A stretch of 51,464 bases of DNA from the IMG/VR virus record IMGVR_UViG_646311923_000011. One strand, given 5' to 3'. Made by a program: the position numbers. This document shows, in pieces, positions 24,001 to 27,000 of this stretch. This stretch comes from a virus (taxonomy: Duplodnaviria > Heunggongvirae > Uroviricota > Caudoviricetes). Numbering within the stretch: the stretch's first letter is position 1; the number at the start of each line of letters is the position of its first letter.

Positions 24001-27000
24001 CTGGTCAAGCTCAGACTGATGGATCACGCAGCCATGATGTTCACAGAGGTAGAAAACGCTTTCGGGGCTGTCCTTCTCCCATTTAAGCCCAAAAGGCGTG
24101 GATTCATCGCCAAATTTCAGATACTGCGCCTCCCCACAGTGCGGGCAGGGCACATAGAAACGCATAAAATGCGCCGACTCGTTGGCCGCTTTTTCGATCT
24201 GGCAGGTGCCTTTGATTTTAGGCGTCGAGCCGCGAATGGATTTTGGCCATACAGAGCCCTCAATACGCTTATCCCCCAGCAGGGTTGGCGAGCCCTCTTT
24301 TTCAACATCCGGTTCGAACGAGGAAAGCTCGTCATAGCAGACCACGTCCACGGATTTTTCACGGTAGTTTTTGGCGGCTGCACCGCCCAGGCACCAGAAA
24401 CCGACGCCCGATGAAAAGCGTTTCAGCGTGAGAGTATTGTCACGATGTTTACGACCCAGCCATGGGGAAAGGTCTTTCAGGCATGGCACGTTCCGAATCG
24501 TCGCCTCCACGTGAGACTTCATAAAATCTTCAGCGGCAGAATCCGTGGGCTGAAAAAGCAGACTGTTTCGGGATTTATGCTCAATAAAATACCCGACCAC
24601 CCCCAGCAACATCTTTGTATAGCCAACACGGGCAGATTTAATCAGATTAACAGTGCGGATCTGATCATTCCCCATGCTGTTCATGATGGCGATCTGGAAT
24701 GGCAGCGTTTTCCATTCGCCCTCACCATATGAAGATTCTTTAGGCAGATAATAATTTTGATCAGCCCATTCAACTGGCGTCACCGGCAATGCCCTTATCA
24801 GGGGCTGTAATGCAGTTGTGACAGCGCTCATCATATTATTCAGTTGTTGCTCTGATATATTCATCAAGTAAATCCGGTAATTTATCCCCTGCCCGCGCAC
24901 ACTGATTTGCCCCCTTAGCAATAAGGGTTTTCAGATGGTCAAGATGGCGCGGTGTTAAATCAGGAAACTGTCGCTGCATGGATAAAGGGATGGAATCAAG
25001 CGTACTGGATAACGCCATTGCCAGCTTACTGAGGGCAAAAATACAGAATCCGGTGTCAATAAGCTTACCTTCGGTTACCTGATTTTTAAGTTTTTGAGCT
25101 ACGGCCTGTTCTTCTGTCAGTTCAGCTCTGGCCCGAAGCAGCCTTTCCTCCAGATCGCCCTCGTCATCAGGTATTCTCTGATTGTGTTGTCGCCGCTCGC
25201 GATCTATCTCCAGTACAGTTTTAACGTCATAAAAAACTTCCCTCCCCCGACGCTCAACAGGAGGAACGCCCCATTTATCAAATGCCTGAACAGATATACC
25301 GATGGAGGAGGCCATATCACTTTTATTCAATAAAAAGGCCATCTCCTCTCCATAAGCCATCGATAAAAAGCGATACAACAACCATGTGTTTTTACAAAAC
25401 CATTTGATATCATTGACATTTTTCGCATTGACGACATCAAAACACATCGTAAGGTTGTTGTATTTATTTTATTTTCACCTTACTTATCAATTAGATATAC
25501 CAAACAATTAAACAACAACTCCCCCTCAAAAAATCTCATAAATAGCGAAAACCCGCGAGGTCGCCGCCCCGTAACCTGTCGGATCGCCGGAAAGGACCCG
25601 CAAAATGATAATAATTATCATCTACATGTCACAACGTGCATCTACGCCATCAAACCACGTCAAATAATCAATTATGACGCAGGTATCGTATTAATTGATC
25701 TGCATCAAATTAACGTAAAAGCAACTTCAGATAATACAAATCAGCAACACTGAATATGGGGGCAACATTATGTCATCAAAGAACAGAACCCGCAGAACAA
25801 CAACCCGCAACATCCGCTTTCCTAACCAAATGATTGAACAAATTAACATCGCTCTTGATCAGAAAGGTTCAGGTAATTTTTCAGCGTGGGTTATTGAAGC
25901 CTGCAGAAGAAGGCTGTCAACAGAGAGTTCGGGTATGAATTACATAATTAAGTAACATGGTGTTCACAGAACACGCAGTTACCGGACACATCAGCTTTCC
26001 ATTCGCCCCCCCCCGGCAGTACAGGCTTCCCCTCTGACGGGGTAGCCTGAAAAAATAACACAGAAAATTATTTGTTATAATTAATATAACTTACTCAAAA
26101 AAAAAGCGACGAGAAAATCAGCATCAACGAACAATAAGCGCCAATACGTGATAACAAATGGCAGCCATATTTATCTGCAGTATAAGCAATGGACAGGATA
26201 ACCACACCAGAAACCGTCAGCATAAAATCCATTTGAACTTCCCCGGACAAAATCGACTCATCTAAAGATTTACAGCTCTTTTTATTATCAATATGTTAAA
26301 AGTAAAATAAACAGATGTTCAATAACACGAATACAAAAACGTGCTGAAATTCAATGAATCCATTTCTGTGTTATCAATTAATAGTGATAAACATCCGGCT
26401 TCTTCCACCATCGCACTGGACAGGCGACTATGAGGGGACAACGCCGCGCTCCGTTAACGCGGTAAACCCCGGTGTGTATCGTTTTTGATTATCCCCGCAC
26501 ACTCGCGCAGAGGAGTCTCCCTGTCGGGCTGCGGTCTCTGTTAATGCAGGAATACGGCGACAATACCGCGCATGGATAATAAGGTCGCTCAACACACTGG
26601 CTGTAATGCAGCGGATACCATGCGGCATTTAGCGGCATTCATCGTACACTCCACGGTTAGCTCTTCATTCGTGGCATTCACCTGAAAGGTCCGGGAGTGT
26701 AATTGCGTACATTTACCACTGAACGAACCTTCAACAAGAACACGACCACGCTGCAAAATACGGAACGGAATTGTTCCCTGAAAAGGTTCTACGGTTACCC
26801 GTAATTTCTTCATGTATCCTCCGGATAATAAAAAGCCAGCTTAGTGCACTGAGTGCGGATATATTCCTGCGCCCCTTCCAGCTGCTTCTGCATTGTCATC
26901 AACCGTTCTCTGAGGATGAAATAATCCCGTTCAGCGGTGTCTGCCAGTCGGGGGCCGGTTGCATTATCCACGCCGGAGGTGCCGGTGGCTTCACGCACGG

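What the first reader, a model, noticed from the sequence alone, without database searches (positions are those of the whole stretch)
25541..25955. cos region matching lambda cos as remembered, with an RHH-like small ORF next to it
The 12-nt cohesive-end sequence and about 45 bp around it match lambda cos, and the following 400 bp track the lambda right-end region with scattered substitutions, although much of the rest of the late region is diverged at the protein level. The conserved 61-aa ORF in this region has a ribbon-helix-helix-like pattern, which would make it a DNA-binding protein sitting beside the packaging site.
Basis: partly seen in the sequence, partly recalled or inferred. Interest (0 to 1): 0.35.

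Follow-up and report, generated by a model that had tools for sequence, protein, structure and literature searches.

The report
Lambda-type cos site plus YlcI gene
This is the DNA-packaging (cos) site of a lambda-like E. coli prophage, with a small, widespread, uncharacterised phage gene (YlcI/YnfO family) next to it that probably encodes a ribbon-helix-helix DNA-binding protein; both are ordinary, already catalogued features.

Summary
Window 25529-25927 aligns to lambda bp 41..1 / 48502..48141 (reverse strand) at 91.5% identity, with 50 exact bases around the 12-nt cohesive end (25558-25569). cosQ lies at 25593-25599. Similarity stops at lambda bp 41, before cosB. The cosB here has three ACAACAAC repeats, and Nu1 is only 36% identical to lambda Nu1.

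The window is an E. coli STEC prophage, 100% identical to five complete genomes. ORF 25770-25955 is annotated there as a YlcI/YnfO family protein (Pfam DUF3950, E 5e-20). It is the orthologue of K-12 YlcI and of an unannotated lambda ORF (48303..48109). dN/dS against lambda is 0.06, so it is a real gene.

A packaging role is not supported. The gene also sits beside an HNH/Terminase_2 module without lambda cos, in P4/PICI-like satellites and in chromosomal islands. Phi80 has the same cosQ/cosN region and no such gene. The most likely function is a small repressor expressed from the prophage, placed at a module boundary.

The parts
25558..25569 (-). cosN cohesive-end sequence. It reads GGGCGGCGACCT on the minus strand, identical to lambda bp 1-12. 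It sits in a 50-bp block (25536-25585) identical to lambda.
   Evidence: Alignment to lambda; sequence read directly.
25593..25599 (-). cosQ heptamer (GGGTCCT on the minus strand), the packaging-termination signal. It is 24-30 bp from the right end, as in phage 434 and lambda.
   Evidence: Position transferred from the cosQ feature of phage 434 OL657226 through the alignments. Role of cosQ from PMC4669245.
25529..25557 (-). Spacer between cosN and cosB (lambda bp 13-41, the I2 segment), 27/29 identical to lambda. Homology to lambda ends at its outer edge.
   Evidence: I2 is described as a conserved segment between cosN and cosB needed for termination in PMC4669245.
25372..25524 (-). cosB of a non-lambda type. 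It has three copies of ACAACAAC: 25512-25519 (R3 position, lambda-equivalent bp 51-58), 25454-25461 (inverted, R2 position) and 25375-25382 (R1 position). This reproduces the R3-R2(inverted)-R1 layout.
   Evidence: The motif occurs 7 times in the window against 1.6 expected, and three copies lie in this 150 bp. Inverted repeats I1, I13 and I20. Lambda R3 is bp 50-65 and R2 is inverted (PMC9026076). Assigning these repeats as R sites is inference.
24836..25342 (-). Terminase small subunit (Nu1 family). Identity is 36% to lambda Nu1 and 48% to N15 gp1. The start at 25342 is preferred because of the RBS GGAGAGGAG and an N-terminus that aligns with lambda's. PGAP starts it at 25315.
   Evidence: Pfam Phage_Nu1 E 5.8e-21; PHROG terminase small subunit; identities; PGAP annotation.
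22936..24864 (-). Terminase large subunit (gpA family). It is about 95% identical in DNA to phage 21 up to window 24782, and 66% identical in protein to lambda gpA.
   Evidence: Pfam GpA_ATPase and GpA_nuclease.
25570..25769 (+). Non-coding block between cosN and the ORF, 93% identical to lambda; its first 139 bp are identical to phage 434. It contains the palindrome ATGATAAT-A-ATTATCAT (25605-25621) and the inverted repeat ATCAATTATGACG / CGTATTAATTGAT (25667-25699). It presumably holds the ORF's promoter, which was not located.
   Evidence: The promoter scan found no + strand site.
25770..25955 (+). ylcI/ynfO-family gene (61 aa, DUF3950), antisense to the late operon. Predicted ribbon-helix-helix: extended 13-18 (RNIRFP), helix 19-32, turn GSGN, helix 37-56.
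   Evidence: Pfam PF13132 71.6 bits (cutoff 25); NCBIfam NF041551; PHROG 949; PGAP WP_032164595.1; dN/dS 0.06; AF2 model; fold searches.

Best explanation
The region is the cos site of a lambdoid E. coli prophage and it is a mosaic. The termination and nicking part (cosQ, cosN, I2 spacer) is the universal lambda/434 version. It is joined at about bp 41 to a different cosB (three ACAACAAC repeats), which is matched to a divergent Nu1 and a phage-21-like gpA. If the prophage is induced, terminase should bind cosB through Nu1, nick cosN to give the lambda 12-nt ends, and use cosQ to terminate. This step is inferred from homology and was not shown here.

The neighbouring 61-aa gene belongs to the YlcI/YnfO (DUF3950) family. 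It is most likely a dimeric ribbon-helix-helix, sequence-specific DNA-binding protein acting as a small transcriptional repressor. It is transcribed against the late operon from its own promoter, so it is probably expressed in the lysogen.

Its position beside cos reflects insertion of accessory ('moron') genes at the boundary between the lysis and packaging modules. It does not reflect a role in packaging. Its DNA target is unknown. The most likely target is its own promoter region and, in relatives, the co-oriented DUF1398/bor genes downstream or the divergent replication operon of satellites.
For: cos:
- Alignment to lambda and cosQ from the 434 annotation.
- Nu1 and gpA domains.
- R-like repeats in the R3/R2(inverted)/R1 layout (compared with PMC9026076).
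- cosQ/cosN/I2 are conserved across specificity groups (PMC4669245).

The gene is real: family models score above their cutoffs; dN/dS is 0.03-0.07 against diverged copies; it is 100% conserved in five complete STEC genomes.

RHH fold:
- Two independent models share the same topology.
- Foldseek lists are dominated by NikA, NikR, MazE9, Arc, ParD, VapB, HicB and CopG.
- hhalign against an Arc-family profile aligns IRFP with LRWP, P=0.011.

Expression outside lytic growth: K-12 ybcW-ylcI is listed as a convergent overlapping transcript pair in at least half of the RNA-seq samples (PMC12288877). The gene runs antisense to the late genes.

Not a packaging part:
- The same CDS (85% nt identity) lies 41 bp from an HNH gene of a Terminase_2-type prophage, with no lambda cos sequence.
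- Phi80 and others share cosN through about 50 bp beyond it and no ORF.
- Distant members lie in P4/PICI-like satellites, divergent from the icd-primase operon, and in chromosomal islands.
Against: - No Pfam RHH model hits the family except HicB_lk in 4 of 63 members.
- No family member has a solved structure.
- No promoter or operator was identified.
- All lambda-type copies of the non-coding block are over 91% identical, so footprinting is impossible.
- Two facts leave some room for a packaging-related activity in part of the family. The gene sits at the start of the packaging module in two unrelated terminase types. There is also a natural fusion of DUF3950 to a TerS DNA-binding domain.
Confidence: 0.7

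Rival explanations
1. YlcI is an accessory packaging or cos-binding protein. It binds the conserved block just beyond cosQ (for example the 17-bp palindrome at 25605-25621). There it would modulate terminase action, packaging termination, or protection of the prophage cos.
For: The gene lies 200 bp from cosN in all lambda-type copies. It is again the first gene next to the packaging module in an HNH/Terminase_2 prophage. Satellites carry a DUF3950 domain fused to a TerS N-terminal DNA-binding domain.
Against: - The palindrome and cosQ are retained in phi80, whose cosQ-adjacent region carries other genes and which gave no blastn match to the ORF.
- cos is described as about 200 bp comprising cosQ, cosN and cosB (PMC4669245).
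- The gene is antisense to the late transcript.
- Most distant members are nowhere near terminase genes.
- The HK97-like copy carries none of the lambda non-coding block.
Confidence: 0.08
2. YlcI is the RHH antitoxin or autorepressor of a two-gene cassette whose partner is the DUF1398 protein (YbcV/YdfO). The window copy is an orphan that lost the partner.
For: In 7 of the lambda-cos loci examined, a DUF1398 gene follows ylcI on the same strand within about 60-130 bp. In lambda and DLP12 it follows after an inserted ybcW. Database entries exist in which the two ORFs are fused by frameshift (P0165). The C-terminal tails after the RHH core vary.
Against: The window, phage 434 (bor follows directly) and the HK97-like copy have no DUF1398 gene. 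Satellite and chromosomal members have other neighbours. DUF1398 has no known toxin activity and gave no meaningful PADLOC hit. Strong purifying selection on the solitary copies argues for a function independent of a partner.
Confidence: 0.12
3. The ORF is not functional here. It is conserved only because it hitch-hikes with the strongly conserved cos sequences.
For: The non-coding block and the first 85 nt of the ORF are nearly invariant among lambda-type copies. This fits recent exchange rather than selection.
Against: dN/dS is 0.03-0.07 against copies with dS 0.5-2. The CDS also occurs without the cos block. The family extends to 35-60% identical members across Enterobacterales with invariant I-R-F...F-S-x-W-V...C positions.
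Confidence: 0.03

Closest known systems
Bacteriophage lambda / 434 cos (cosQ-cosN-I2-cosB with Nu1/gpA terminase)
   Same: The 12-nt cohesive end is identical, the cosQ heptamer has the same spacing, and the I2 spacer is 27/29 identical. The first 139 bp beyond cosN are identical to 434. The order is the same: lysis genes, ylcI, cos, Nu1, A.
   Different: cosB is unrelated in sequence (ACAACAAC repeats). Nu1 is 36% identical to lambda's, and no full-length relative above 48% exists among 50,697 phage records. gpA is of the phage 21 type. No strict IHF consensus was found in cosB.
E. coli K-12 YlcI (DLP12) / YnfO (Qin) and the unannotated lambda ORF 48303..48109 (DUF3950, NF041551, PHROG 949)
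   Same: Same family, position and orientation relative to the Nu1 homologue (nohD). The first 50 residues are 92% identical.
   Different: The C-terminal tail differs (STESSGMNYIIK against TSEKRAYTSIKSDEE). The 3' half of the gene comes from a more diverged lineage. The window has no ybcW, DUF1398 or bor genes downstream.
Arc / Mnt repressors of phage P22 and other ribbon-helix-helix proteins (NikR N-domain, CopG, VapB/ParD antitoxins)
   Same: Size is similar. There is a basic N-terminal segment with an alternating pattern ending in R-[FW]-P, then helix, G-x-x-N/S turn, helix. These proteins are also the best structural neighbours.
   Different: There is no significant sequence or profile match, and the family is not placed in an RHH Pfam family. 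An invariant Cys and Trp in helix 2 are not RHH hallmarks. The beta-ribbon cannot be seen in a monomer model. DNA binding is untested.
Rpp proteins of Gram-negative PICIs (redirect helper TerS to the PICI cos)
   Same: Both are small proteins encoded next to a lambda-like cosQ/cosN on a mobile element (PMC9026076).
   Different: Rpp proteins are 139-154 aa winged-HTH proteins that occupy the Nu1 position on the cosB side. YlcI is about 60 aa, predicted RHH, on the cosQ side and on the opposite strand. They are not homologous.

Membership tests
lambda-type cos site | 12-nt cohesive-end sequence flanked by the conserved nick-site bases | tested here: met
   25558-25569 is identical to lambda bp 1-12, inside a 50-bp exact match.
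lambda-type cos site | cosQ heptamer at the conserved distance on the right-end side | tested here: met
   25593-25599 corresponds to the 434 cosQ feature at 24-30 bp from the end.
lambda-type cos site | cosB with TerS-binding R repeats (R3, inverted R2, R1) between cosN and the Nu1 gene | tested here: inconclusive
   Three ACAACAAC copies lie in the right positions and orientations, but binding is untested. No strict IHF consensus was found between them.
lambda-type cos site | Adjacent Nu1-family and gpA-family terminase genes | tested here: met
   Pfam Phage_Nu1, GpA_ATPase and GpA_nuclease.
lambda-type cos site | Cleavage by terminase to give 12-nt 5' overhangs | not testable with these tools
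   Needs induced phage DNA end sequencing.
YlcI/YnfO family (Pfam DUF3950, NCBIfam NF041551) | Score above the curated cutoffs of the family models | tested here: met
   PF13132 71.6 bits against a cutoff of 25. NF041551 36.4 bits against a cutoff of 30. PHROG 949 E 1e-32.
Ribbon-helix-helix (Arc/MetJ/CopG) superfamily | beta-strand, helix, turn, helix topology in about 45 residues | tested here: inconclusive
   Both helices and an extended N-terminal segment are predicted in two members (pLDDT 73-74). The strand pairs only in a dimer, which could not be modelled.
Ribbon-helix-helix (Arc/MetJ/CopG) superfamily | Significant structural or profile similarity to a known RHH protein | tested here: inconclusive
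Ribbon-helix-helix (Arc/MetJ/CopG) superfamily | Obligate dimer that binds DNA through the beta-ribbon | not testable with these tools
   Needs biochemistry or a multimer prediction.
Type II toxin-antitoxin (RHH antitoxin) | Co-oriented adjacent toxin gene | tested here: not met
   There is no + strand ORF of 60 aa or more downstream in the window. The DUF1398 partner seen in other loci is absent here.
Packaging accessory protein linked to cos | Consistent co-occurrence with the packaging site or terminase across the family | tested here: not met
   No gpA/Nu1 gene lies within 4 kb in any of the distant loci (L043-L085). The CDS occurs without lambda cos, and lambda-type cosQ/cosN occurs without the CDS in phi80.

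The most novel reading that the evidence does not exclude
DUF3950 proteins could be a family of RHH regulators that mobile elements use at or against packaging modules. In lambda-type prophages, YlcI would bind the conserved block just beyond cosQ and influence terminase access or termination, or protect the resident cos. In helper-embedded satellites, the natural DUF3950-TerS-DNA-binding-domain fusion would sit on the helper's packaging site and divert packaging.
Probability: 0.07. Interest if true: 0.6.

Novelty: new member of a known kind. Interest (0 to 1): 0.2.

Why it matters
It matters little for the window itself. It confirms that this prophage has a lambda-type packaging site and carries one more copy of a very common E. 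coli prophage gene.

Three modest points of value come out of the work.

1. The DUF3950 (YlcI/YnfO) family has no assigned function, although sequence matching the 2.1-kb cos-ylcI query (window 24800-26900) is present in about 85% of complete E. coli genomes. It can reasonably be proposed as a ribbon-helix-helix DNA-binding family.

2. The lambda reference genome leaves its copy unannotated.

3. The cosB/Nu1 N-terminal domain here has no close counterpart among sequenced phages. It may represent a further packaging specificity in the lambda, 21, N15 series.

Tried and rejected
- I first read the low divergence of the non-coding block (7%) against dS 0.6 in the ORF as selective constraint. I rejected this. 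A multiple alignment shows the window's differences are concentrated after codon ~29, which indicates a mosaic junction. All lambda-type copies are too similar for footprinting.

- Long antisense ORFs overlapping the DUF3950 match in satellite loci looked like a competing gene. They are artefacts of ORF extension across the reverse complement of the conserved CDS plus a real downstream icd-like gene.

- A Rfam scan of 24800-27500 found nothing.

- A sigma-70 scan found no + strand promoter for the ORF.

- Searches of PDB sequences with the single protein and with the family profile found no relative.

- hhalign against Arc, as a single sequence and as a family profile, gave only a weak in-register match.

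- The AFDB Foldseek library was unavailable.

- I considered Rpp-like function and rejected it. Rpp proteins are winged-HTH proteins of 139-154 aa on the cosB side.

- PADLOC gave no defence-system assignment.

- The literature holds no functional study of ylcI, ynfO or DUF3950.

- The first genome-contig query with an 18-sequence alignment failed for lack of a conserved stretch.

Full report
**What is in the sequence.** Reading 25000-26800 and listing ORFs shows three genes on the minus strand: a gpA-type large terminase (22936-24864), a Nu1-type small terminase (24836 to about 25342), and lysis genes further right (Rz/Rz1 26810-27388, endolysin 27947-28480). The 61-aa ORF lies on the plus strand at 25770-25955. 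Pfam confirms GpA_ATPase/GpA_nuclease and Phage_Nu1, and assigns the small ORF to DUF3950 (E 4.9e-20). The window plus strand is therefore the minus strand of the lambda map.

**Check of the observation.** I fetched lambda 46300-48502 and 1-3000, joined them as in a circle, and aligned them to window 24800-26900.
- The single local alignment covers window 25529-25927 = lambda 41..1 / 48502..48141, with 398 aligned positions and 91.5% identity.
- A 50-bp exact block (25536-25585) contains the cohesive-end sequence at 25558-25569.
- blastn against 50,697 phage records finds lambda at 92.3% identity, E 2e-152, and 201 records in all.

**Anatomy of cos.**
- The curated annotation of phage 434 places cosQ 24-30 bp from the right end, which maps to window 25593-25599.
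- Similarity to lambda ends at lambda bp 41. That point is after the cosN-cosB spacer (I2), which together with cosQ and cosN is conserved across lambda, 21 and N15 and serves termination (PMC4669245). It is before R3, which occupies bp 50-65 in lambda (PMC9026076).
- In the diverged interval, the octamer ACAACAAC occurs at 25512-25519 (lambda-equivalent bp 51-58), inverted at 25454-25461, and again at 25375-25382. The octamer occurs 7 times in the window against 1.6 expected.
- This reproduces the R3, inverted R2, R1 layout of lambda-like cosB sites. The assignment is inference.
- No strict IHF consensus lies between the repeats.
- Nu1 is 36% identical to lambda Nu1 and gpA is 66% identical to lambda gpA. 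gpA DNA is about 95% identical to phage 21 up to 24782.
- The best full-length phage relative of this Nu1 is N15 gp1 at 48%. Only its C-terminal half has a close match, 94% to PhiR12_2.
- The site is therefore a mosaic: a universal cosQ-cosN-I2 joined to a cosB/Nu1 DNA-binding domain of a type not represented among sequenced phages.

**Provenance.** Window 24800-26900 is 100% identical to five complete E. coli genomes (for example O45:H2 FWSEC0003). Some part of it matches 4602 of 5426 complete E. coli genomes, with a median of two places per genome. PGAP annotates the ORF there as 'YlcI/YnfO family protein' WP_032164595.1. NCBIfam NF041551 and PHROG 949 (unknown function) agree.

**Relation to lambda and K-12.** Lambda's RefSeq record does not annotate its copy. 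The copy is 48303..48109 on the complement strand, 64 aa, and identical to K-12 YlcI. In DLP12 the order is rzpD, borD, ybcV, ybcW, ylcI, nohD, as in lambda.

**Is the ORF a real gene?** Over the first 50 codons:
- the window differs from lambda by 14 synonymous and 4 non-synonymous changes (dN/dS 0.06);
- it differs from a copy in another phage type by 18 and 5 (dN/dS 0.05).

The family has members at 35-60% identity throughout Enterobacterales, with invariant I15, R16, F17, F37, S38, W40, V41 and C45. It is a real, selected gene.

**A retracted inference.** I first thought the non-coding block 25570-25769 was under constraint, because it is much less diverged than the ORF's synonymous sites. 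A multiple alignment of eleven lambda-type copies shows two things. The window is identical to 434 for 139 bp beyond cosN. Its differences are concentrated after codon ~29 of the ORF, which indicates a recombination joint. The low divergence therefore reflects recent shared ancestry, and no conclusion about constraint is possible.

**Fold.**
- AlphaFold2 with a 63-sequence alignment gives mean pLDDT 72.9: an extended segment around RNIRFP (13-18), helix 19-32, a GSGN turn and helix 37-56.
- A satellite-type member modelled separately gives the same topology at pLDDT 74.
- Foldseek against the PDB has no hit below E = 1. Even so, the list is almost entirely ribbon-helix-helix proteins: NikA N-domain, NikR, MazE9, Arc, ParD2, VapB, HicB, YiiF, MatP.
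- In the BFVD viral library the named hits are again RHH, CopG and NikA proteins.
- hhalign against a profile of 28 Arc-family proteins aligns 25 columns in the expected register (IRFP opposite Arc LRWP), with P = 0.011 and probability 4%.
- No PDB sequence relative exists.
- Pfam RHH models do not hit, apart from HicB_lk in 4 of 63 members.
- I judge the RHH fold likely, about 0.8, but not demonstrated. The beta-ribbon forms only in a dimer, which the tools could not model.

**Is it tied to the packaging site?** Three lines say no.
1. The blastn classes separate cleanly. Some phages share the whole block plus ORF (lambda, 434, HK629 and others). Many Stx phages and BP-4795 share only the ORF. 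Phi80 and others share only cosN to about 50 bp beyond it, including cosQ and the palindrome. In phi80 the adjacent genes are different.
2. In E. coli CP027459 a close copy (85% nt identity over the CDS only) sits 41 bp from an HNH endonuclease gene of a Terminase_2-type prophage, with no lambda cos sequence.
3. A scan of one genome per species found distant members only in Enterobacterales and Gilliamella. None has a gpA/Nu1 gene within 4 kb.
   - 17 of these loci have a P4-type integrase. 13 have a primase (Zn_Ribbon_Prim/Toprim/DUF927), together with AlpA and AntA genes.
   - They are therefore P4/PICI-like satellites. In them the gene lies on the opposite strand, divergent from the icd-primase operon.
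   - Other members follow cytochrome bd or ABC-transporter genes, lie between sopB and pipD in Salmonella, or sit in a Mu-like prophage.

One point deserves note. The gene is the first one next to the packaging module in two unrelated terminase types. This fits insertion of accessory genes at the lysis/packaging module boundary.

**Likely mode of action.**
- The gene is antisense to the late operon.
- In K-12, ybcW-ylcI is reported as a convergent overlapping transcript pair in most RNA-seq samples (PMC12288877). It is therefore transcribed without induction.
- In most lambda-type loci a DUF1398 gene (YbcV), with or without bor, follows on the same strand. The window has none of these.
- In satellites the gene occupies the position typical of a repressor facing the replication operon. 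Its upstream regions carry paired 13-bp repeats that co-vary between loci.
- The best-supported reading is a small RHH repressor expressed from the resident element. Its target is unknown.
- I could not locate a promoter or an operator in the window.

**Comparison with known systems and novelty.** The cos is a member of the lambda-like cos group with a variant cosB. The ORF is a member of a catalogued but uncharacterised family. No paper in the searchable library reports a function for ylcI, ynfO or DUF3950. Rpp proteins of PICIs, the known small proteins next to lambda-like cos sites, are unrelated winged-HTH proteins. The finding is correct but ordinary, hence the low interest score. The modest new content is the RHH proposal for DUF3950, the unannotated lambda gene, and a possibly new cosB/Nu1 specificity.

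Noticed in passing
window 24836-25524: The Nu1 N-terminal (DNA-binding) half and the cosB with three ACAACAAC repeats have no close counterpart among 50,697 phage records. The best full-length match is N15 gp1 at 48%. Residues 81-168 match PhiR12_2 at 94%. This may be an undescribed packaging specificity. The PGAP start at 25315 probably truncates the winged-HTH; 25342 has a strong RBS.
   Followed up: partly
L002 (lambda NC_001416) 48303..48109, complement: The lambda reference genome does not annotate its 64-aa ylcI orthologue, which is 100% identical to K-12 YlcI.
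   Followed up: yes
L086 6001-6363 (E. coli CP027459); protein P0224: A 120-aa protein joins a DUF3950 domain to the N-terminal DNA-binding part of a Terminase_2 small terminase. That part is 64% identical to the TerS N-terminus of the surrounding prophage and 53% to the satellite's own TerS. It lies in a satellite (integrase, D5-type primase, TerS, capsid) apparently inserted in the prophage's large terminase gene, next to a second 60-aa DUF3950 gene. It could be a packaging-interference factor.
   Followed up: partly
L047-L083, about 60-130 bp upstream of the DUF3950 start codons: In satellite loci the upstream region carries two copies of a roughly 13-bp element (GGTGnnnnnACAC-like). The two copies match each other within a locus and differ between loci. 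They are followed by a conserved ACACGTCAA and a TGTATAGT -10-like box, and are candidate operators. Further upstream is a conserved hairpin followed by a T run. The window has CCACGTCAA at 25656-25664.
   Followed up: no
L006, L007, L008, L036, L037, L091, L092, L002, L094: In lambda-cos loci ylcI is usually followed on the same strand by a DUF1398 gene (YbcV/YdfO), sometimes with bor. Some database entries show the two ORFs fused (P0165). This may be an operon. The pair is absent from the window.
   Followed up: partly
L009-L044 and many ENA contigs of about 3.5 kb: Near-identical lambda copies of this ORF appear in assemblies of unrelated organisms (Streptomyces, Cohnella, Flavobacterium, Staphylococcus, MAGs), often as contigs of about 3.5 kb. 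Error-ridden versions inflate the family's cluster count. These look like lambda control or cloning DNA contamination.
   Followed up: no
window 26589-26813 (-) and 26095-26250 (-): Two small minus-strand ORFs lie between ylcI and Rz. The 74-aa one matches only positions 100-172 of a 291-position PHROG (2571, unknown function), so it may be a gene remnant. The 51-aa hydrophobic one has no family match.
   Followed up: no
window 25425-25448 and 25638-25661: A 24-nt direct repeat (79% identical) lies on either side of cosN, one copy inside cosB and one 69-92 bp beyond cosN. It may be chance.
   Followed up: no
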